Below are positions 1 through 47,331 of a stretch of 64,000 nucleotides of DNA, piece by piece. The stretch is from contig CAYOXC010000002.1 of NCBI GenBank assembly GCA_964407865.1, forward strand, positions 120,646-184,645, given 5' to 3'. The notes under the pieces are model-generated. The model was not told the origin of the DNA. It saw only the letters and a program-made list of their open reading frames with translations, and did no database searches. The DNA comes from an uncultured Gammaproteobacteria bacterium. GTDB lineage: Bacteria > Patescibacteriota > Patescibacteriia > Magasanikbacterales > GWA2-37-8. Position 1 is the stretch's first letter. Each line of letters opens with the position of its first letter. The translations under genes were made by a program, and so were the position numbers.

Positions 1-45
1 GAATAAGAACAAAATCGCTCCTTGAAAAAAGAAAGGAGTATTACA

Positions 46-2118
46 ATGAAACAAGGAGGTCCGGTAATGGACAAAATTGAATTGGGAGGAAAGTCGAAAG
101 TTGATCTGTTGGTTCGATATTTGACGAATTTGCCGGGGCCGCTTACTTCCGAAGAGCTGCATCTGATGCGTGGGGCAATAGGTACGGAAGGATGCGCCAG
201 GCTTCATGTTGCGTCGCAAAATGCGGAGAACGTGGGGCGGACGACTGTTCGCTTTTCTTCGATCCCGGGTGATGTTGACGAAGTGTTTCCTAATATTCTT
301 GAAGATCGCGCGGAAGTAACAAGTATCGCAGGTTTTATATTGGGCATGAAGAAGAGCGGTGCTGACTGGGTAATTCTGGAGTCGTTTATTGAGGAGTACT
401 TCGCCAATGGCGGACAGGCAAATTCTCAACTAGTTGAGGATGACACGACCGACAATCAGACCGATGAGAACAGTGAAAAGGAAATCGAATTGAACCCTGA
501 AGATTGTGTTCCGGTGAAAGATGATAATGACGTTGAAACGAGAAAGGAAGTTGAAGAGGGGGTTGAAAAGTTGAACGAACTTTGTCTCGAACTAGAACAA
601 ATCAGATCAATTGTCGCTAGCCACGAACTGGAGTTGAAGCAAGTCAATGACAATCTCGGTTTTCTCACTGAAGCCAAAAAAAATGCGCTTTTTGCCAAAG
701 AAGAGCTAGGGCGCGAGGTTGACGAGCTTACGCATGAAATTATCGAAATCAGAAAGAGTTCTGCCGAACTAAAATCAGAAGTTGCCAAACGCAAAGAAGA
801 GGCGCACGACATTGAACTCGACGCCTTGAACACAGAGCAGGCAGCAGCTGAAAAAATGGCCGAATGCAAGGCTCGCCTTCAGGCAGCTGAGGAGTTGAAC
901 GCGCAAGCTGATCTCTTCCTTAACAAGGCCGAACAACTTGAGGCTGATGCGGCAGAGAAAATGCAGGAGGCTGAGGCGCGAATCGCGACTGCCACGACCG
1001 AGATGGCTGAATTAGAAGCTCACGAAAGAAAGCAGAGCAATGAATCGCTGGCGCTTGTTGCGAAAATGGACGAAATCGGCATTAGCCAGGAGCTTAGAGA
1101 AAAACTGAAGCCTGAAGTGGATGAGGCTGTTCGTTACCAGGCGGCAATTTACACGCTTTCACTGATCAAAGTGAGCGCTGAAAAATTGGCCGGACAAGTT
1201 CGTGACGAGGTGGTAGACCTAGCGGCTGAATGTCGTGTTCTCGGCGAAAGGCGAACCGGGCTCGATGAACAAATTGCCGAGCTATCATCGTCGTGTGATT
1301 CGTTGACAGAAAATGTGCGTGAACTCACGGATCTTCGCAGTAGCCTGAGCGAGGAGATATCTTCGCTTGAAAATGATATTGCTGAAATGGAAAAAAATTT
1401 GGATCAGGCTCGTCAGGAATCGCGGGCAATCAATTCAAATTATCACGATACTCTGGCCAAATACCGCGAAGCCATTGAGGATAAAAATCGGCAGATGGCT
1501 GAGGCTGAGGCTGATTTTCTACGACAGCAGGCAATTCAGCAAGATAAGATCAGCAAGTTTGAGCAAATGACAGCCAGTGTTATCTCCGAGGCGCAGACCA
1601 ATCTGCAAAAAGCCTCAAAAAGCTGTGCTGATCGAGTAGCGGAGCTTGAAGCGCAAGCAGTTAGGGCCAAAGAAAAGGCAGACAGTGAGTCTGCCAGGCT
1701 GAAGCTCATAATCACAGAAGCGGAGACGGCTTTAGACGAAATGCGAGTTAACGCCGAAAACCGCGTCAGAGAGACGCATAATAAGGCGGCTGCTCTAGTT
1801 AACGTGGTTCAAGAAGTTCAGGCGGAAAACCTCTCCAGCTTGCAGGCAAAATTGGAAGAGATGGAGCAGTTCGACAGATTTTTTGATATAGTGATGGTTT
1901 CACTCAAGGAAGCAAAATCCAAAGTTCAGCGTGTTTACGAAGAAAGCGAAGGCTTGAACAAAACCTACCAGTCACTATTTGCCATTCGGATGAAAGAAGC
2001 CGAAGAAATCGACGTTAAAATGAGCCAAGCGTTGGCATTGGTAGAGCAGATTTGCGCTGAACCAATTGTCCAAAAAGACGATGATGCGGCGAAAGAAGAT
2101 CTTAAAAATACCAAGTAA
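46..2118 (+). CDS. Large coiled-coil protein: N-terminal ~130-aa globular domain followed by a ~550-aa Ala/Glu/Lys/Leu-rich coiled coil. Hypothetical.
   Basis: The ORF track gives 22..2118 with a TTG start. In-frame ATGs at 46 and 67 are each preceded by a GGAG/AGGAGG Shine-Dalgarno sequence. The sequence is heptad-like and E/A/K-rich over most of its length. GC is visibly higher than in neighbouring genes. A terminator hairpin follows at 2136-2168. Confidence 0.55.
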   Translation: MKQGGPVMDKIELGGKSKVDLLVRYLTNLPGPLTSEELHLMRGAIGTEGCARLHVASQNAENVGRTTVRFSSIPGDVDEVFPNILEDRAEVTSIAGFILGMKKSGADWVILESFIEEYFANGGQANSQLVEDDTTDNQTDENSEKEIELNPEDCVPVKDDNDVETRKEVEEGVEKLNELCLELEQIRSIVASHELELKQVNDNLGFLTEAKKNALFAKEELGREVDELTHEIIEIRKSSAELKSEVAKRKEEAHDIELDALNTEQAAAEKMAECKARLQAAEELNAQADLFLNKAEQLEADAAEKMQEAEARIATATTEMAELEAHERKQSNESLALVAKMDEIGISQELREKLKPEVDEAVRYQAAIYTLSLIKVSAEKLAGQVRDEVVDLAAECRVLGERRTGLDEQIAELSSSCDSLTENVRELTDLRSSLSEEISSLENDIAEMEKNLDQARQESRAINSNYHDTLAKYREAIEDKNRQMAEAEADFLRQQAIQQDKISKFEQMTASVISEAQTNLQKASKSCADRVAELEAQAVRAKEKADSESARLKLIITEAETALDEMRVNAENRVRETHNKAAALVNVVQEVQAENLSSLQAKLEEMEQFDRFFDIVMVSLKEAKSKVQRVYEESEGLNKTYQSLFAIRMKEAEEIDVKMSQALALVEQICAEPIVQKDDDAAKEDLKNTK

Positions 2119-21019: not shown

Positions 21020-21029
21020 CGTATAAAAT

Positions 21030-21053
21030 AATGCCCGGCTTTTGCCGGGCATT
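21030..21053 (+). terminator. Hairpin aatgcccggc tttt gccgggcatt after tRNA-Leu
   Basis: Perfect 10-bp stem. Confidence 0.5.
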
Positions 21054-21123
21054 ATAGGTGGTAAAGGTGGGAAGAGAACGGGAAAGGGAGAAAACGGGAG
21101 TTTTCTCTTTGTGGAGGAGGATT

Positions 21124-21168
21124 CACGGGAACCCGAAGCCTGCCTGCCGGTAGGCAGGGTTCCCGTGA
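21124..21168. repeat. GC-rich nested hairpin (cacgggaaccc ... gggttcccgtg enclosing cctgcc...ggcagg)
   Basis: Inverted repeat read directly. It sits inside a 150-bp GC-rich block. Confidence 0.6.
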
Positions 21169-21194
21169 AAGCGAACGAAGTGAGTGCGTGAGAT

Positions 21195-21210
21195 TTCCCA
21201 CCTTCGACAC
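21195..21210 (+). repeat. Direct partial copy of the tRNA-Leu 3' end (ttcccaccttcgAcac versus ttcccaccttcgGcac)
   Basis: 15 of 16 nt identical to 21004-21019. Confidence 0.7.
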
Positions 21211-21344
21211 AAATTTACTGTTGTAATTCACAAGTCAGCCCAGAACCTCGCTCCTGGCTAAAAATAGCTAAAAAAAGCAAAAAACATGGTTTGTTTACCT
21301 TGTTTTTTATTTTTTTTATGCTATAATAATAGCAACTTGTATTT

Positions 21345-24649: not shown

Positions 24650-24678
24650 TTGACAAGGGGAGGAATTTATGCTATATT
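24650..24678 (+). promoter_or_regulatory. Near-consensus sigma70 promoter (TTGACA-N17-TATATT) on the plus strand. A divergent TTGTCA-N17-TACAAT promoter for rel overlaps it on the minus strand.
   Basis: Hexamers read directly. The core cttgacaag is palindromic. Confidence 0.5.
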
Positions 24679-24686
24679 AAGCGCAC

Positions 24687-24833
24687 GATGCTAAGGCCTT
24701 AGTGCCACAGACCCCTCCCCATTTTTTGGTGAGGGGTGCTGTTTTTTAATAACAAAAAGAGGACATAGATTATTGCTTTTAATAATATTTCGTGATAAAT
24801 TACTGACGCGGGGAGCGATTGGCCCTTAGCATC
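24687..24833 (+). ncRNA. Candidate structured ncRNA (6S-like?) between rel and topA
   Basis: The plus-strand promoter lies at 24650-24678. 5' gatgctaaggcc (24687-24698) is complementary to ggcccttagcatc (24821-24833). An internal hairpin+T-run lies at 24711-24748 and a terminal hairpin+T-run at 24871-24904. No ORF is present. Confidence 0.25.
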
Positions 24834-33350: not shown

Positions 33351-35471
33351 ATGGACATAAATACGCCGATAATAAAATTGAGTAGAGTGGGCGCCACAAC
33401 CGCCAAAAATCTAACCCGCCTTAATATTTTAACAGCGCAAGATTTGTTATATTGGTTTCCGTCTCGCTATGAAGATTTTCGTAATATTGTTCCGATCAGT
33501 TCTCTCAAAGACGAAATGTCTGTCACAGTGCGTGGTAAGTTGGAGTTAATAGCAAACAAGCGCTCATTTAGGCGTCGTAAAATTATAACTGAAGCATTGG
33601 TTTCTGATGAAAGCGGTAGCATTCGCGTGGTTTGGTTTAATCAGCCGTTTATAGCAAAAATGTTAAAACCAGGCGACAATATATTTTTGTCTGGTAAAGT
33701 TAAATCAGACATGATAGGGGTGGAATTCATAAGTCCGACATATGAAAAAGATATCAGTGGAGAAACAGCCCATACAGCGCGGTTAGTGCCTATATATCCT
33801 GTAACTCATGGGATAACACAAAAGCAGATGCGTTTTTTGATAAAGCAAATTTTACCTTTAAGTGATAAAATTTTAGAATGGCTACCTGAAAAAATACTTG
33901 AGAAATATGACCTGATGCCTATTGCCGATGCCTTGAAAGGAATCCATTTTCCTTCAGAAGAAAATGAGCTTAAAGCATCAACAGAAAGAATTAAATTTGA
34001 CGAATTATTTTTAGTTCAACTACGAGCTGAGCGCATTCGATTGGGACGAAAAAGTTTGCGCGCGCCAAACATTATTTTTAAGGAAGAGAAGATAAAAGAA
34101 TTTGTTTCAGCATTGCCTTTTTCTTTGACTCGGGCGCAAAAAATTTCTGCCTGGGAGATACTCAAAGATTTAGAAAAAAATATACCAATGAACCGTCTGC
34201 TGTCAGGTGATGTTGGGTCAGGTAAAACAGTTGTAGCGGCGATTGCTCTATACAATACAGTTTTGAATAATTATCAAGCAGTATTAATGGCGCCGACGGA
34301 GATATTAGCAAGACAACATTTTGACTCTTTATGTAATTTTTTTGAAGGCAATTTAAAAATAGCACTACTAACGAGAAGTCAGCGCGTATTTGCGGTCAAA
34401 AAAGAAAGTATAAAATTTGAGTTAAGCAAGAAAGAAATAGAAAAACAAATTTTTGACGGTGAGGTTGATATTGTAGTGGGCACGCATGCTTTGTTATCAG
34501 AAAAAATAAAATTCAGTGACGTTGGTTTGGTTGTTGTTGATGAACAGCATCGGTTTGGTGTAGGGCAAAGAAAAGCTATTAAAGACAAAACAAACGATAT
34601 TTCAGCTCATTATTTAAGCATGACTGCTACGCCAATACCGAGATCGTTTGCCTTAATGATTTATGGCGATTTGGATATTTCCATATTAAACGAGGCTCCA
34701 CCTGGCAGAAAGCCGGTTTTAACCAGATTGGTTGAGTCAAAAAATCGCGACAAGGCATATCAGTTTATAGAAAACCAGGTTTTAAACGGCAGACAGGTGT
34801 TTGTGGTTTGCCCTTTGATTGAAAAATCTAAAGAAAAGACGACAAAAGACGAAATTGAAATCATTAATTACAAAGGTTATCCTTCTATTTTAGAGAAGAA
34901 AAGTGTAACCAGCGAATTTGAAAAATTATCAAAAAATATTTTTCCTAATTTACGATTAGATTTTTTACATGGAAAAATGAAGCCAGCTGACAAAGAAAAA
35001 GTAGTTGATAAATTTAAAAAAGGAAAAACGGACTTATTAATTTCTACCACAGTAATTGAAGTTGGTGTGGATATCCCAAATGCATCAGTTATGATGATAG
35101 AAGATGCAGAGCGATTTGGTTTGGCCCAACTTCATCAATTGCGTGGCCGGGTTGGCCGTTCCATCCATCAGTCATATTGCTTTGTTTTTACTGGAAGTGA
35201 TTCAGATAAATCGCTTTCTCGTTTAAAATATTTTGAAAATATTAGCGATGGTTATAAGTTGGCGGAAAAAGATCTGGAAACACGTGGTCCGGGCGAAGTT
35301 TATGGTGTTGTTCAGAGCGGTATGATGAATTTTAGGTTGGCTAGATTGACAGACAGAGAAATCATTAAAAAAGCGCGGCAAGCAGCTGAATCAATCGGCT
35401 CAACAATTGATCAATATCCAAAACTTGAAGAAAAGGTTGCTGATTGGGAAAAATTGATACATTTAGAATAA
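33351..35471 (+). CDS. recG: ATP-dependent DNA helicase RecG
   Basis: Wedge/OB N-terminal domain. Helicase motifs GDVGSGKT and DEQHRFG. Confidence 0.9.
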   Translation: MDINTPIIKLSRVGATTAKNLTRLNILTAQDLLYWFPSRYEDFRNIVPISSLKDEMSVTVRGKLELIANKRSFRRRKIITEALVSDESGSIRVVWFNQPFIAKMLKPGDNIFLSGKVKSDMIGVEFISPTYEKDISGETAHTARLVPIYPVTHGITQKQMRFLIKQILPLSDKILEWLPEKILEKYDLMPIADALKGIHFPSEENELKASTERIKFDELFLVQLRAERIRLGRKSLRAPNIIFKEEKIKEFVSALPFSLTRAQKISAWEILKDLEKNIPMNRLLSGDVGSGKTVVAAIALYNTVLNNYQAVLMAPTEILARQHFDSLCNFFEGNLKIALLTRSQRVFAVKKESIKFELSKKEIEKQIFDGEVDIVVGTHALLSEKIKFSDVGLVVVDEQHRFGVGQRKAIKDKTNDISAHYLSMTATPIPRSFALMIYGDLDISILNEAPPGRKPVLTRLVESKNRDKAYQFIENQVLNGRQVFVVCPLIEKSKEKTTKDEIEIINYKGYPSILEKKSVTSEFEKLSKNIFPNLRLDFLHGKMKPADKEKVVDKFKKGKTDLLISTTVIEVGVDIPNASVMMIEDAERFGLAQLHQLRGRVGRSIHQSYCFVFTGSDSDKSLSRLKYFENISDGYKLAEKDLETRGPGEVYGVVQSGMMNFRLARLTDREIIKKARQAAESIGSTIDQYPKLEEKVADWEKLIHLE

Positions 35472-35581
35472 TTACATCTTGACTTTTCGATGTTTTTGTG
35501 ATATCCTCCCGGTTGTCTGTTTTGGAAGTTAAACTTCTAAAACAGGGGGTCCATTTACCAACCAAGGAAGGAAAAAATGAG

Positions 35582-35983
35582 ATGAAGAAACAAGCAGTTG
35601 CGATTGCAAGTCCGGAAAGAGACAGGATTCGCGTGTTGGTCAGAAGTGGCAATGAACCGCATCGGTCGTTTTACCTCACGGTCATGCACCTCGGGCTCAA
35701 CGGCAAGAGCGTCAGGCTTTTTGGCCGTCCGGGTCAGGATATGACCGACCGGACTTTCGAGGCCGAGGAAGTGGTTTTCAGGAGGGAAGAAGACTTGGAG
35801 CACTTCGTGCGTTTTGCGGCAGATTCCCTGCTCTCGCGCCGAAAGCGCTTCGTCTGGGATCCTTTCGGTGAAGAGGATGACTCTGTGATCGACGACACCG
35901 CCGGTCCGCTTCGTCAGAAGATCTGGAAGTGTTTCACTTCGCATCCGTCGATCAAGATTGACGGCGAGATTTTCAAGCGCTAA
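35582..35983 (+). CDS. GC-rich orphan protein (133 aa), hypothetical
   Basis: ATG at 35582 with an AGGAAGGA Shine-Dalgarno sequence. GC is about 55%. TTGACT lies at 35479. A terminator lies at 36013-36044. No family recognised. A long antisense ORF here (35555..35944) is taken as a GC artefact. Confidence 0.5.
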   Translation: MKKQAVAIASPERDRIRVLVRSGNEPHRSFYLTVMHLGLNGKSVRLFGRPGQDMTDRTFEAEEVVFRREEDLEHFVRFAADSLLSRRKRFVWDPFGEEDDSVIDDTAGPLRQKIWKCFTSHPSIKIDGEIFKR

Positions 35984-36012
35984 ACCCTTCGTCCTTGCAC
36001 CTTATTAAACAG

Positions 36013-36044
36013 GCCGCCCAAGACAATTGTCAGGGGCGGCTTTA
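36013..36044. terminator. Bidirectional hairpin gccgccc aa gacaattgtc ag gggcggc + T-run
   Basis: Read directly. Confidence 0.55.
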
Positions 36045-36071
36045 TTATTTAAAAAATAATTTTATAACAAA

Positions 36072-39613: not shown

Positions 39614-40842
39614 ATTGATAAGTTTATCTCAAAAACACCAGATTGCGTCGTGTCGCTAAATAGCAATCTGTTGTTTGTTTCATCATACGATATATTTTTC
39701 ATTGAAAAATCTCCGCCAGTATTAATAGTTGTTTTGAGTCCGGTTTTTAGGTCAATTTTATAGAGATCATCAGTAGTGCCAGCGGCAATTTCTGGTTTAA
39801 GAGCTGCGCCTTGTGGCAAGTTGCGCGGTACGGCGCAATAAAGCGTTGAATCGCCGGCAAATGTGCATTTATCCGGCCAAGTGTTTAATTCTAGGTTGCG
39901 GCGGTTTGAGCCGATTTCATTACCATATGAGTTAGTCACCCAGATTTCCGGTTTAAGGTCACTACGCTGGGAATAGACGCTATACATTAGCTGATTTCCT
40001 GTTGGCGACCATTTGGGAGTAAAACCAAGCCCTTCCACAACCAATGATTTAAAATTTTCATGATTAAGACCGACAAGCAAAACTTCTTTGCGATAGAGCC
40101 CCAGCGGTTTTCCGGTAAAGGAAAAGGCGACAGTTTGGCGGCTGGGTGACCAATCAATCAGTACTTTGTCTTGGTTTTCACCCATTGGCTCGATTAGTTG
40201 AGTTCCAGTTCCATCATCACTGACGGTGAGCAACCAGCGGTTTTCAGGCGAGAGGCCAATTGATTTGGCGGCAATTTCAGTGCTGTCTGGTGAAAAAGAA
40301 AATTCTTCCCAGTGTTTTGGTAGGGTTACTTGTTTTTGAGTTTCAAAATTATAAATAATTTTTGATTGATCCGGATATTCGAGAACTGCCTTATCGGCTG
40401 TTTTCGCCCAAGTTACATTTGAAACATTATAAAAAACAGAATCACTCATGGCTTTGGTCGTTCCGTCGGGCATAACTTGATAAAATTTGCCATCACTTTG
40501 ATTGTAATACCTAAGAGCGCCAGTAGAATTAACTGAAGAATACACCGTCGGTTCCGCAGTAACCTGCCTAACAGCTTCAGGGCGATAATAGCTTGGCTCA
40601 ACACCGGGGATGTATCCGGCCTGCGGTAGGGTTGGTACACCGGGAACGCCTGGTGCGGTCGTGGCCACCCGCTCTCCAGCTGGTGGCAGAGCGCCGGGTA
40701 GGGTAGGTGTAGCCGTGGGTGGTGTTGGTACTTCTGCTACTGGCACTGCTTTTCTAAAAAAATAATATAAAGCCAGGGCTAAAAGAGCTGTGACTATAAA
40801 AAGTCCGATAATTAACAAAATTCTTTTAAGTCTATCTGACAT
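39610..40842 (-). CDS. Membrane-anchored beta-propeller protein (TolB/PD40-like repeats) with a Pro-rich linker
   Basis: N-terminal TM helix and a PTPPTATPTLPGALPP linker. Repeats include SPDSTEIA, WSPSRQTVAF and WSPTGNQLMY. Confidence 0.55.
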   Translation of the reverse strand: MSDRLKRILLIIGLFIVTALLALALYYFFRKAVPVAEVPTPPTATPTLPGALPPAGERVATTAPGVPGVPTLPQAGYIPGVEPSYYRPEAVRQVTAEPTVYSSVNSTGALRYYNQSDGKFYQVMPDGTTKAMSDSVFYNVSNVTWAKTADKAVLEYPDQSKIIYNFETQKQVTLPKHWEEFSFSPDSTEIAAKSIGLSPENRWLLTVSDDGTGTQLIEPMGENQDKVLIDWSPSRQTVAFSFTGKPLGLYRKEVLLVGLNHENFKSLVVEGLGFTPKWSPTGNQLMYSVYSQRSDLKPEIWVTNSYGNEIGSNRRNLELNTWPDKCTFAGDSTLYCAVPRNLPQGAALKPEIAAGTTDDLYKIDLKTGLKTTINTGGDFSMKNISYDETNNRLLFSDTTQSGVFEINLSI

Positions 40843-45619: not shown

Positions 45620-45970
45620 ATGCCCAAAAAATTTACACCACGAGGAAAGAAAGTTATTTCATGGCAAAAGAAAAAATCCGACGCTTTTGTTGATTTTGCC
45701 GATAAGCAAAAAGATATTCGCAATAACAAGAAACAAGATATTGCTGAACGAATAAAATTAGCCGGAATTAAATTAAAAAATACATACAAGGCAAAATTAG
45801 GAGATGATTTGCGGTTTCGTAAATATACAGTAATAAAAATTGACCGTTTGGAAGGCGATATTTGGTTGAAATCTGAAAGTAATACGGTTAGAAAAACGCG
45901 AGTATTTGACAAAATTTTTGCTCCCATAATCCGAGGACGAAGCAGGCTGAGTAAATATAGAAATCAATAA
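45620..45970 (+). CDS. Basic hypothetical protein (116 aa)
   Basis: ORF with a downstream terminator. No motif recognised. Confidence 0.4.
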   Translation: MPKKFTPRGKKVISWQKKKSDAFVDFADKQKDIRNNKKQDIAERIKLAGIKLKNTYKAKLGDDLRFRKYTVIKIDRLEGDIWLKSESNTVRKTRVFDKIFAPIIRGRSRLSKYRNQ

Positions 45971-45994
45971 TCGTAAATTAGTAATTTTTATATA

Positions 45995-46019
45995 AAAACC
46001 GGCTAATGAGCCGGTTTTT
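45995..46019 (+). terminator. Intrinsic terminator (aaaaccggct aatg agccggttttt)
   Basis: Read directly. Confidence 0.6.
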
Positions 46020-46033
46020 ATATTCAAAGATGC

Positions 46034-46062
46034 TTGACAAATTAGCCTTTTTTTGCTATATT
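46034..46062 (+). promoter_or_regulatory. Near-consensus sigma70 promoter (TTGACA-N17-TATATT)
   Basis: Read directly. Confidence 0.55.
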
Positions 46063-46121
46063 TTAAACCGACAATGGACCACCAAAAGGCGGTTCAAAGA
46101 CCCAAGAGGAGGGGAGAGAGA

Positions 46122-46325
46122 ATGAAGAAAGCAGAAAAAAAAGACTTAGAGGTTTACGAACCAAGGCGCAAAGGCACCTATCGACAACGTCGGCAGAAGC
46201 CGGCAGACCGCCCGTCCTGGCACCCGGAGATGTTGGACACTTTCGAGAGTTCGAATTACTACGACGAGCCGGAGCTCAGCCAGGAGGAGATTCGCCTCAT
46301 CCGGCGGATCAACGACGCCTCTTAG
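46122..46325 (+). CDS. GC-rich small orphan protein (67 aa; alternative start at 46074 gives 83 aa), hypothetical
   Basis: AGGAGG sits 6 nt before the ATG at 46122. GC is about 55-60%. Two terminators follow. Confidence 0.45.
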   Translation: MKKAEKKDLEVYEPRRKGTYRQRRQKPADRPSWHPEMLDTFESSNYYDEPELSQEEIRLIRRINDAS

Positions 46326-46357
46326 TCGCCCTACGACTTCTTAGTTCTTTATGACTT

Positions 46358-46380
46358 GAGCCGCCTTTTTAAGGCGGCTC
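46358..46380 (+). terminator. Perfect 10-bp hairpin gagccgcctt ttt aaggcggctc
   Basis: Read directly. Confidence 0.55.
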
Positions 46381-46389
46381 TTAGATTTT

Positions 46390-46422
46390 AAAAAAACAGA
46401 TATTTTTAATATCTGTTTTTAT
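46390..46422. terminator. Bidirectional terminator (A-run, acagatatt...aatatctgt, T-run), also serving htpX
   Basis: Read directly. Confidence 0.55.
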
Positions 46423-47331
46423 TTAAGCCCCCATTGTTCTTAATTTCTTTATTCTCTCTTCCACTGGCGGGTGGGTGCTGAAAAGCGAAGCGAATTTTTT
46501 ACGACTGCCCCTGAATGGGCTTGAAATAAAAAGATGAGCTGTGGCAGATGAGGCGCGTTGCATCGGTTGGTTTTCGTGAGCGATTTTTTCCAAGGCATTG
46601 GCTAAGCCGTCAGGGTAGCGAGTGAGAAGAGCGCCTGAAGCATCAGCTAAATATTCGCGTTTGCGAGATATGGCAAGTTTTATTATTTCCGCAATAAAAG
46701 GGGATAGTATTGCGAGAACTATGCCAACAATCATTAAAATCACAAATAATTGCGAGCCTTCGTTTCGATTATTGCTACGGCCGCGAAATAAACCGCCGGA
46801 GCGAAGCATAATATTAGCCAGGATTACAATAGAACCAACCATTACAGCAACAAGCATCATAAAACGAATATCGTAATTTTTAATGTGTGATAGTTCGTGG
46901 GCTATTACTCCTTCCAACTCACTGCTTTCAAGTTTTTCTATTGCCCCTCGGGTCAGAGCGATAGAGGCAGTTTTTGGATCTCGGCCAGTTGCAAAAGCGT
47001 TGATGGCTGAATCTTCAATAATATAAATTTTTGGCACGGGCAAACCCGAAGCAATGCAAAGATTCTCTACCAAATGATAAACCCCTTCGTTTTCATCATG
47101 ACTGATTGGTTTGGCGCCAGTAGCAGACAGGGCAATTTTATCGCCAGAAAAATAAGAAACCATTGTCATCACTAGAGCGATGAGAAAAGCAAAAATTACA
47201 CCGCTGTAGCCTCTGCCATTGCCATATAGCTGATCAAAAGTCCAGCCAAGTAAAATAATGATGGCGATAAACAAGGAAACAAGAATCAATGATTTTCTTT
47301 TGTTTGAAGTTATTTCGTTGTACATAAACAA
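46423..47331 (-). CDS. htpX: Zinc metalloprotease HtpX (M48)
   Basis: HELSHIKNYD HExxH motif. 4 TM helices. Confidence 0.9.
   Translation of the reverse strand: MFMYNEITSNKRKSLILVSLFIAIIILLGWTFDQLYGNGRGYSGVIFAFLIALVMTMVSYFSGDKIALSATGAKPISHDENEGVYHLVENLCIASGLPVPKIYIIEDSAINAFATGRDPKTASIALTRGAIEKLESSELEGVIAHELSHIKNYDIRFMMLVAVMVGSIVILANIMLRSGGLFRGRSNNRNEGSQLFVILMIVGIVLAILSPFIAEIIKLAISRKREYLADASGALLTRYPDGLANALEKIAHENQPMQRASSATAHLFISSPFRGSRKKFASLFSTHPPVEERIKKLRTMGA

What the first reader, a model, noticed from the sequence alone, without database searches (positions are those of the whole stretch)
45971..46430. Third GC-rich small orphan gene with textbook promoter, Shine-Dalgarno sequence and double terminator
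TTGACA-N17-TATATT lies at 46034-46062. AGGAGG sits 6 nt before the ATG at 46122. The product is 67 aa (basic N-terminus, acidic C-terminus, RRQK/PEM motifs) with GC rising to about 60%. Two terminators follow, one a perfect 10-bp hairpin. It is strongly expressed-looking but compositionally foreign.
Basis: partly seen in the sequence, partly recalled or inferred. Interest (0 to 1): 0.5.

Follow-up and report, generated by a model that had tools for sequence, protein, structure and literature searches.

The report
Clade-restricted small disordered protein gene
This is a real, probably highly expressed gene for a 67-residue, mostly disordered protein found only in one small clade of Magasanikbacteria (CPR bacteria); it is inherited vertically, not imported, its function is unknown, and its persistently GC-rich codons are unexplained.

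Summary
A TTGACA-N17-TGcTATATT promoter, an AGGAGG Shine-Dalgarno (9 nt, not 6, before ATG 46122), a 67-codon ORF and two perfect hairpin terminators are all present.

The ORF is not a strict orphan and not foreign. It belongs to a family of about 12 protein clusters (67-86 aa). All members with enough context sit in the same syntenic slot (PMM – g116 – small ORF – htpX/lemA) in one monophyletic group of Candidatus Magasanikbacteria.

- **Signals:** all nine DNA copies keep a perfect −35, a 17-nt spacer, GGAGG, and a terminator with compensatory changes.
- **Coding evidence:** indels are in frame (12/12) and pN<pS in 12/12 pairs (dN/dS about 0.2-0.35).
- **Protein:** no hit in Pfam, NCBIfam, PHROGs, PADLOC, PDB or Rfam. 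AlphaFold gives coil plus one C-terminal helix. The basic N-half and acidic C-half are conserved.
- **Codon usage:** it is truly atypical (GC3 0.70 vs 0.35±0.05 expected; excess in 9/9 orthologues). It is not expression-linked and is not explained by conserved RNA structure.

Best reading: an abundant small disordered protein that binds a partner. The partner and function are unknown. This kind of object is ordinary in CPR genomes, so interest is modest.

The parts
45994..46019 (+). Intrinsic terminator of the upstream 116-aa gene (AAAAACCGGCT-AATG-AGCCGGTTTTT). It lies about 14 nt upstream of the -35 box and isolates the small gene transcriptionally.
   Evidence: Read. An equivalent hairpin sits directly upstream of the -35 in all nine orthologous copies.
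46034..46062 (+). Sigma-70-type promoter: TTGACA, 17-nt spacer, TGcTATATT (extended -10).
   Evidence: 11/12 match, TG present. All nine copies have a perfect TTGACA, a 17-nt spacer and a 5/6 -10 box.
46069..46121 (+). Inferred 5'UTR of about 53 nt, with a 5'-proximal hairpin (about 46075-46096, GGACCACCAAAAGGCGGTTC) and the AGGAGG Shine-Dalgarno at 46107-46112.
   Evidence: MFE fold. GGAGG lies 4-10 nt before the start codon in 9/9 copies, and a 5'-proximal hairpin is predicted in most copies. The transcription start is inferred, not measured.
46122..46325 (+). CDS of the 67-aa protein MKKAEKKDLEVYEPRRKGTYRQRRQKPADRPSWHPEMLDTFESSNYYDEPELSQEEIRLIRRINDAS (stop TAG 46323-46325). Conserved motifs are Y12-x-P-R15, R30-x-S-W-H-P-E, and P-E-L52-x-x-E-E56-x-x-L59.
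   Evidence: family alignment A4. In-frame indels 12/12. pN<pS in 12/12 pairs. AlphaFold: coil plus helix at residues 54-66.
46344..46350 (+). 3'UTR motif GTTCTTT (G[TC]TCTTT-like), recurring 10-25 nt upstream of the terminator in most orthologues. Its role is unknown.
46358..46389 (+). Intrinsic terminator 1: a perfect 10-bp stem, GAGCCGCCTT/AAGGCGGCTC, with a 3-nt loop and a T-rich tail.
   Evidence: The stem is conserved in 9/9 copies, with compensatory changes at stem positions 4, 6, 8 and 9.
46392..46420 (.). A second hairpin: a perfect 13-bp AT-rich palindrome flanked by an A-run and a T-run. It is probably a bidirectional terminator shared with the convergent htpX gene (stop codon at 46423-46425).
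   Evidence: Read. L001 has an equivalent hairpin with a different stem sequence (ACGGATA/TATCCGT). The other orthologues have only one hairpin between the two genes.

Best explanation
**Shown.** This is a genuine monocistronic protein-coding gene. It has its own near-consensus sigma-70 promoter, a strong Shine-Dalgarno, a 5' hairpin and an efficient terminator. It encodes a 67-aa, very hydrophilic, cysteine-free protein. It belongs to a small family (67-86 aa, about 12 clusters) that appeared at the base of one clade of Candidatus Magasanikbacteria. It has been inherited vertically in a fixed slot between a 103-122-aa gene and htpX. The protein is under purifying but relaxed selection and evolves fast.

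**Predicted.** It is intrinsically disordered apart from one C-terminal amphipathic helix.

**Inferred mechanism, much less certain (about 0.3).** An abundant disordered 'bipolar' protein that acts by binding a partner. The lysine/arginine-rich N-half carries two conserved short linear motifs (VYxPRxDG and PSRRKPxxRDSWHPE) and docks on a negatively charged surface, most plausibly nucleic acid or a nucleic-acid machine such as the ribosome, RNA polymerase or nucleoid. The acidic segment and the helix (DDEPELSxEExxLxxxI) fold on binding to a protein groove, or fold back on the basic arm. The gene is dispensable, because one in-clade lineage has lost it.

**Unexplained.** The GC-rich synonymous codon usage is a maintained family trait of unknown cause.
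For: - **Family and breadth.** A single-sequence search finds one 72%-identical homologue. Profile searches converge on about 12 clusters, all 67-86 aa (alignment). tblastn of the single sequence finds L012 at 3e-11 and L006 at 2e-4 to 7e-7 in the syntenic slot.
- **Synteny.** The order clpB / PMM / g116 / small ORF / htpX / lemA / rseP / pheS holds in every member with context.
- **Phylogeny.** Carriers are monophyletic on an htpX+lemA+rseP tree, and L010 is a sister lineage without the gene. L007 nests inside the clade with an empty slot, which indicates loss.
- **Expression signals.** All nine copies have TTGACA-17-TAnnnT, GGAGG 4-10 nt upstream of the start, and a terminator stem with compensatory substitutions.
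- **Coding.** 12/12 indels are multiples of 3 in nucleotide-only alignments. pN<pS in 12/12 pairs, with Fisher p from 3e-3 to 1e-7 and dN/dS of 0.17-0.35 against 0.03-0.13 for the neighbours.
- **Structure.** Two independent AlphaFold runs give coil (pLDDT 50-65) plus one C-terminal helix (pLDDT about 90 and about 77).
- **Charge.** The N-part is net +4 to +11 and the C-part -4 to -8 in 11/12 members. GRAVY is -0.9 to -1.6.
Against: - There is no direct evidence of transcription or translation.
- No partner, fold or family gives a functional anchor. Pfam, NCBIfam, PHROGs, PADLOC, PDB and Rfam are all negative.
- Genomic context gives no operon partner.
- The binding mechanism is inferred only from disorder, charge layout and motif conservation.
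- The GC3 excess, and the very low synonymous divergence in the 3' two-thirds between the window and L001 (pS 0.17, against 0.48-0.93 in the flanking genes), show that something besides the amino-acid sequence constrains the DNA or RNA. This model does not explain that.
Confidence: 0.8

Rival explanations
1. Dual-function transcript. The mRNA encodes the protein, but its GC-rich 3' two-thirds also acts at the RNA level, for example as a stability element, a regulatory RNA or a binding platform. That second role would maintain the G/C-ending codons.
For: - GC3 excess in 9/9 orthologues, z from +1.7 to +6.5.
- The excess is not host expression-linked bias: NNC fraction is 0.81 against 0.18 in r-protein/EF-Tu genes.
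- pS is 0.17 in codons 26-67 between window and L001, while the flanking genes are at 0.48-0.93.
- The window transcript folds better than shuffles (z=-3.9). Its CDS gives z=-2.7 against both dinucleotide shuffles and synonymous-codon permutations.
- A 3'UTR motif is conserved.
Against: - Excess structure is not a family trait. CDS z-scores are about 0 in six of nine orthologues.
- Synonymous suppression is absent in four other pairs.
- The predicted long-range 5'-3' pairing is inconsistent between copies.
- There is no Rfam match.
- Low pS follows automatically from any pressure for G/C at two-fold degenerate sites, so it is not independent evidence.
Confidence: 0.12
2. A purely non-coding structured RNA gene. 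GC-rich islands in AT-rich genomes are often RNAs, and the ORF would then be a by-product of stop-codon-poor GC-rich sequence.
For: - All three forward frames and two reverse frames are open across the island.
- The ORF length is not significant against shuffles, p=0.03-0.12.
- A strong promoter plus terminator with no operon partner resembles an sRNA gene.
- The fold z-score is -3.9.
Against: - The Shine-Dalgarno and start codon are conserved in 9/9 copies.
- 12/12 indels are in frame.
- pN<pS in 12/12 pairs.
- Protein-level homologues are detectable where the DNA is only 59-69% identical.
- RNA structure is not conserved and there is no Rfam hit.
Confidence: 0.03
3. A horizontally acquired ('compositionally foreign') gene. 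This would be either a recent import into this genome, or an ancient import from a GC-rich donor at the base of the clade that has not yet ameliorated.
For: Codon usage is far from the host's (GC3 z=6.5). No homologue exists outside the clade. Sister lineages hold no DNA remnant.
Against: - A recent import is excluded by monophyly, strict synteny and vertical co-divergence with flanking genes whose synonymous sites are at or near saturation.
- No mobile-element genes, repeats or tRNA are at the slot.
- No donor homologue exists anywhere among 5.8 billion clusters.
- The most AT-rich genomes (window, L086) do not show lower GC3, which is the opposite of what amelioration predicts.
- The promoter and Shine-Dalgarno are host-typical.
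Confidence: 0.05

Closest known systems
[quoted passage not shown] Patescibacteria (AGNOSTOS catalogue; Vanni et al. 2022, PMC9132574)
   Same: A protein with no Pfam domain, restricted to a shallow clade of a CPR phylum and known only from MAGs and metagenomes. The paper counts 54,343 such clusters, including 6,987 genus-level and 1,456 family-level. This is the category the gene belongs to.
   Different: It is a category, not a functional family. I could not check whether this cluster is in that catalogue. The maintained GC3 excess and the consensus expression signals are specific to this case.
Small disordered bacterial regulators that fold on binding, such as the anti-sigma factor FlgM, the C-terminal arms of type II antitoxins, and the RNA-polymerase-binding protein SutA (comparison from my own knowledge, not tested here)
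   Same: Size under 100 aa, predicted disorder with one helix-forming segment, and conservation concentrated in short linear motifs.
   Different: There is no sequence similarity to any of them. There is no adjacent toxin, sigma factor or flagellar gene. The gene is monocistronic. The resemblance is one of mode of action only.
Proteins with a basic nucleic-acid-binding part and an acidic tail, such as HMGB-type proteins and the RNA polymerase delta subunit of Firmicutes (comparison from my own knowledge)
   Same: A conserved bipolar charge layout: the N-half is net +4 to +11 and the C-half -4 to -8.
   Different: Those proteins have a folded DNA- or RNAP-binding domain, whereas this one has none predicted. 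No homology was detected.
The second GC-rich small gene unit in the same window (35.47-36.05 kb, 133-aa ORF)
   Same: Same architecture: a promoter-like TTGACT, a purine-rich Shine-Dalgarno, a GC-rich ORF in an AT-rich genome, and a hairpin terminator.
   Different: No sequence similarity, and it is twice as long. I did not analyse it further.

Membership tests
Protein-coding gene (as opposed to non-coding RNA) | The reading frame, start codon and ribosome-binding site are preserved across diverged orthologues. | tested here: met
   9/9 copies keep GGAGG 4-10 nt before an ATG or GTG, and the same frame stays open.
Protein-coding gene (as opposed to non-coding RNA) | Indels preserve the frame, and non-synonymous changes are rarer than synonymous ones. 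| tested here: met
   12/12 indels are multiples of 3 in nucleotide-only alignments. pN<pS in 12/12 pairs, p from 3e-3 to 1e-7.
Protein-coding gene (as opposed to non-coding RNA) | The product is detected (ribosome footprints or peptides). | not testable with these tools
   No expression data are available here.
Sigma-70-type promoter with intrinsic terminator (independent transcription unit) | -35 and -10 hexamers with 16-18 nt spacing, followed by a GC-rich hairpin and T-tract downstream. | tested here: met
   (11/12 match plus TGn; 10-bp hairpin). The signals are conserved in 9/9 copies, with compensatory changes in the terminator stem. The transcript ends were not measured.
Strict orphan gene (ORFan) | No homologue in any other genome. 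| tested here: not met
   About 11 other clusters and eight other DNA loci were found. It is taxonomically restricted, not unique.
Recently horizontally acquired ('foreign') gene | Atypical base composition or codon usage. | tested here: met
   GC3 is 0.70 against 0.35±0.05 expected, z=6.5.
Recently horizontally acquired ('foreign') gene | Patchy distribution incongruent with host phylogeny, or a mobile-element or integration context, or an identifiable donor lineage. | tested here: not met
   The carrier clade is monophyletic with strict synteny. There is no homologue outside the clade and no mobile genes at the slot.
Any curated protein family (Pfam, NCBIfam, PHROGs, PADLOC) or solved structure | A significant profile match. 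| tested here: not met
   The best matches have E of 0.1 or worse and hit single members only.
Any Rfam RNA family | A covariance-model score at or above the gathering threshold. | tested here: not met
   One search found only tRNAs in the window. In one search all hits in 45900-46500 are far below gathering and mostly fall on the terminator hairpins.
Type II antitoxin or toxin-antitoxin module | Co-transcribed with an adjacent partner gene in a two-gene operon. | tested here: not met
   It has its own promoter and is flanked by terminators on both sides. The upstream g116 gene also occurs in genomes that lack the small gene.
Pup/UBact-type disordered protein modifiers (defining feature from my own knowledge) | A C-terminal GGQ or GGE (Pup), or a terminal Q/E after R (UBact), together with ligase and proteasome genes. 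| tested here: not met
   The C-termini are ...INDAS...ISNARR and ...ISSRK. The accessory genes were not searched for.
Hydrophilin/LEA-like stress proteins (criteria from my own knowledge: Gly above 6% and high hydrophilicity) | High glycine content together with high hydrophilicity. | tested here: not met
   The protein is hydrophilic (GRAVY -1.6), but the window protein has only 1 Gly in 67 residues (sequence).

The most novel reading that the evidence does not exclude
The G/C-ending codons are held by selection at synonymous sites because the transcript has a second, RNA-level role. Alternatively, the gene was born de novo at the base of this clade from a GC-rich non-coding transcription unit sitting in a 'nursery' slot. 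The sister lineage L010 carries two unrelated small GC-rich ORFs with strong Shine-Dalgarno sequences in exactly the same slot, which would fit repeated birth and turnover of small disordered proteins there.
Probability: 0.12. Interest if true: 0.6.

Novelty: new member of a known kind. Interest (0 to 1): 0.3.

Why it matters
By itself it matters modestly. It adds one well-delimited, apparently highly expressed small-protein family to the very large pool of lineage-specific unknowns in CPR bacteria, and it corrects a database start-codon call.

It is a clean test case for two general questions. The first is how taxonomically restricted, disordered microproteins arise and persist in reduced genomes. 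The second is what can keep synonymous sites GC-rich for long periods in an AT-rich genome, when neither host codon preference nor conserved RNA structure explains it.

If the protein proves abundant and binds the ribosome, RNA polymerase or nucleoid, it would be a clade-specific accessory factor of a core machine in organisms that cannot yet be cultured.

Tried and rejected
- **Rfam.** Gathering threshold on the whole window and E≤10 on the region gave only tRNAs and sub-threshold terminator-like noise.
- **Protein libraries.** Pfam, NCBIfam, PHROGs, PADLOC and PDB sequence searches were all empty.
- **Profile search of 1.84 billion representatives.** It returned only the two known members plus one spurious low-complexity repeat protein, P0003.
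- **Collection scans.** Back-translated pattern scans of GTDB genomes and JGI metagenomes with the protein found nothing.
- **Paralogy.** Similarity to the other GC-rich islands was tested and there is none. There is no second copy in the window.
- **L010's same-slot 67-aa ORF as a diverged homologue.** Rejected (hhalign probability 0.2%).
- **DNA remnants.** nhmmer found none in L007, L009 or L010.
- **Long-range pairing of the start region with the 3'UTR GTTCTTT motif.** Predicted in some copies but not consistently.
- **Conserved mRNA structure as the cause of GC richness.** Not supported family-wide.
- **Expression-linked codon bias.** Rejected, because r-protein/EF-Tu genes prefer NNT and have GC3 of 0.32.
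- **Fold search.** Not run, because both models are low-confidence coil.
- **Upstream neighbour g116.** It gave only non-significant SH3-like PDB hits (E 0.4-0.8).
- **Literature.** Searches found nothing specific to this protein.
Full report
**1. Observation**

- The promoter is TTGACA at 46034-46039, a 17-nt spacer, then TATATT at 46057-46062 preceded by TG at 46054-46055, an extended -10.
- AGGAGG lies at 46107-46112, which is 9 nt rather than 6 before ATG 46122.
- The ORF runs to TAG at 46323-46325 and encodes 67 aa.
- GC reaches 0.60-0.62 locally and averages 0.55 over the ORF, in a window that averages 0.39.
- A perfect 10-bp hairpin at 46358-46380 with a T-rich tail follows.
- After that comes a perfect 13-bp AT-rich palindrome at 46392-46420. 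It abuts the stop codon of the convergent htpX gene and is probably a shared bidirectional terminator.
- The upstream 116-aa gene ends with its own terminator at 45994-46019, just before the -35 box.

None of these matches is significant on its own. Promoter-like and terminator-like sites are as frequent in shuffled sequence. All three forward frames and two reverse frames are open across the GC-rich stretch. A stop-free run this long turns up in 3-12% of shuffles. The case has to rest on comparison with relatives.

**2. What it is**

The host is an AT-rich Candidatus Magasanikbacteria (Patescibacteria/CPR) genome, judging by the record titles of the closest htpX loci.

- **First search.** A search of 5.8 billion protein clusters with the 67-aa sequence found only the protein itself and one 72%-identical 67-aa protein. 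The copy of the protein itself is called there with an unsupported 83-aa start. The relative lies on a 1.5-kb contig that is syntenic with the window and has the same promoter, Shine-Dalgarno and two terminators.
- **Anchored search.** I used the conserved neighbour htpX as an anchor and fetched 80 related loci. tblastn with the single sequence found diverged copies (46%, 35% and about 28% identity) in exactly the same slot in three of them.
- **Profile search.** A five-sequence profile then retrieved 12 clusters of 67-86 aa, and a further round converged on the same set. The consensus is MSRKKKEG..VYxPRxDG..PSRRKPxxRDSWHPEA..DDEPELSxEExxLxxxISxAxR.
- **Synteny.** Every member with enough context shows the order clpB(-) PMM(+) [DUF559] g103-122(+) SMALL(+) htpX(-) lemA(-) rseP(+) pheS/T.
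- **Phylogeny.** On a tree of htpX+lemA+rseP the carriers form one clade. L010 is a sister lineage without the gene. On an htpX tree, L007 nests inside the clade with an empty slot. That indicates secondary loss and dispensability.
- **Outside the clade.** Scans of GTDB genomes and JGI metagenomes, a profile search of 1.84 billion representatives, and nhmmer on the sister loci found nothing further.

**3. Coding or RNA?**

Several results argue for a protein-coding gene.
- All nine DNA copies keep a perfect TTGACA, a 17-nt spacer, a 5/6 -10 box and GGAGG 4-10 nt before the start codon.
- All nine also keep a GAGCCGC...GCGGCTC terminator whose stem shows compensatory substitutions.
- Nucleotide-only pairwise alignments give 12 indels, all multiples of three.
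- On exact CDSs, pN<pS in 12 of 12 pairs (Fisher p from 3e-3 to 1e-7). dN/dS is 0.17-0.35, compared with 0.03-0.13 for the neighbouring housekeeping genes.
- Rfam gives nothing.

The window transcript folds better than shuffles (z=-3.9). This is not a family trait, because CDS-only z-scores are near zero in six of nine orthologues. A suspected pairing between the start region and a conserved 3'UTR GTTCTTT motif is not consistently predicted. A purely non-coding RNA is therefore very unlikely.

**4. The protein**

No library matches it: Pfam, NCBIfam, PHROGs, PADLOC and PDB sequences are all negative. Two AlphaFold runs on different members predict low-confidence coil with a single C-terminal helix. 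The helix spans residues 54-66 at pLDDT about 90 in one model, and 66-79 at about 77 in the other. I therefore ran no fold search.

The protein is strongly hydrophilic (GRAVY -0.9 to -1.6) and has no cysteine. It has a conserved bipolar layout, with the N-part net +4 to +11 and the C-part -4 to -8 in 11 of 12 members. Conservation is concentrated in three places:
- the short motif Y12-x-P-R15-x-x-G;
- the short motif R30-x-S-W-x-P-E;
- the hydrophobic stripe of the helix (L52, E56, L59, I63).

**5. Composition**

'Compositionally atypical' is correct.
- GC3 is 0.70, against 0.33±0.06 for 46 long host ORFs.
- For this exact protein under host codon usage the expected GC3 is 0.32-0.36±0.05, so z is about 6.5.
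- Amino-acid content explains a total GC of only 0.42-0.43 out of the observed 0.55.
- It is not expression-linked bias. The EF-Tu/r-protein set has GC3 of 0.32 and prefers NNT (NNC fraction 0.18), while this ORF uses NNC in 13 of 16 cases.

'Foreign' is not supported. The GC3 excess is present in all nine orthologues (z from +1.7 to +6.5). Meanwhile synonymous sites of the flanking genes are at or near saturation between the same genomes. The excess is therefore maintained, not a fading import signature.

In the window/L001 pair this shows up as a very low pS of 0.17 in codons 26-67, where GC3 is 0.81-0.86. Most of those codons are two-fold degenerate, so any pressure for G/C at the third position produces this automatically. 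The cause of that pressure is unexplained.

**6. Mechanism**

Shown or strongly supported: an independent, conserved transcription and translation unit that encodes a fast-evolving, dispensable, clade-restricted small protein.

Inferred (about 0.3): an abundant disordered protein that works by binding. The basic arm and its motifs would contact a negatively charged partner such as nucleic acid or a nucleic-acid machine. The acidic helix would fold on a protein groove or back onto the basic arm.

The neighbourhood is rich in proteostasis genes (clpB, htpX, lemA, rseP). The whole block is syntenic across the wider group, including lineages that lack the small gene, so this is not evidence of a functional link.

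**7. Comparison with what is known, and novelty**

It belongs to no known family. In kind it is one of the lineage-specific unknown gene clusters that are extremely common in Patescibacteria: 54,343 clusters, of which 6,987 are genus-level (PMC9132574). Resemblances to FlgM-like or antitoxin-like fold-on-binding regulators, and to basic-plus-acidic-tail proteins, concern mode of action only and come from my own knowledge. They are not test results.

Verdict: a new member of a known kind. Interest is about 0.3, and what lifts it above routine is mainly the unexplained, maintained GC3 excess. The most novel reading not excluded is either a dual-function transcript or de novo birth in a slot that also hosts unrelated small GC-rich ORFs in the sister lineage L010. 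I put its probability at about 0.12.

Noticed in passing
window 35470-36050: A second unit with the same architecture: a TTGACT-type promoter, a purine-rich Shine-Dalgarno, a GC-rich (about 53%) 133-aa ORF (MKKQAVAIASPERDRIRVLV...) and a hairpin terminator at about 36012-36042.
   Followed up: partly
window 21020-21240: A GC-rich, hairpin-rich segment (for example GGGAACCCGAAGCCTGCCTGCCGGTAGGCAGGGTTCCCG) directly after tRNA-Leu and its terminator. It has no convincing ORF and no Rfam hit at gathering threshold, so it is a candidate unannotated structured RNA.
   Followed up: no
window 63291-63572 and 63650-64000: Two more GC-rich islands (up to 0.65-0.66 GC). The first starts right after tRNA-Glu (63214-63286). 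Their nature was not examined.
   Followed up: no
window 60801-61895 (- strand): The only long ORF in the window with atypical codon usage (364 aa, GC3 0.64 against a host mean of 0.33). It has no Pfam hit at E≤1e-5. It may be an acquired gene, or another case of maintained GC-rich codons.
   Followed up: partly
window 24650-24760: Another near-consensus promoter (TTGACA-17-TGcTATATT), followed by short hairpin-forming sequence that does not look coding (…CCCCTCCCCATTTTTTGGTGAGGGGTG). It is a possible small RNA.
   Followed up: no
window 40506-40799: This GC-rich island (up to 0.66) appears to be a Pro/Gly/Thr-rich low-complexity stretch inside a minus-strand gene, not a separate small gene.
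   Followed up: partly
window 22-2118 (+ strand): A 698-aa ORF at about 47% GC upstream of the EF-Tu/r-protein cluster, with no Pfam hit at E≤1e-5.
   Followed up: no
L010 3950-4530 (- strand in locus coordinates): In the sister lineage, the same slot between the g116 homologue and htpX holds two other small GC-rich ORFs (77 and 67 aa) with AGGAGG Shine-Dalgarno sequences. The 67-aa ORF has no detectable homology to this family (hhalign probability 0.2%). The slot may turn over small genes.
   Followed up: partly
window 45620-45970: The upstream 116-aa gene has no Pfam hit and is itself lineage-restricted, though it is found more widely than the small gene. Residues 55-94 give only non-significant SH3-like PDB hits (E 0.4-0.8).
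   Followed up: partly
window 46074: The public gene call for this locus (P0001, 83 aa) starts at ATG 46074. That start has no Shine-Dalgarno and lies about 5 nt from the inferred transcription start. Orthologues support the 67-aa start at 46122.
   Followed up: yes
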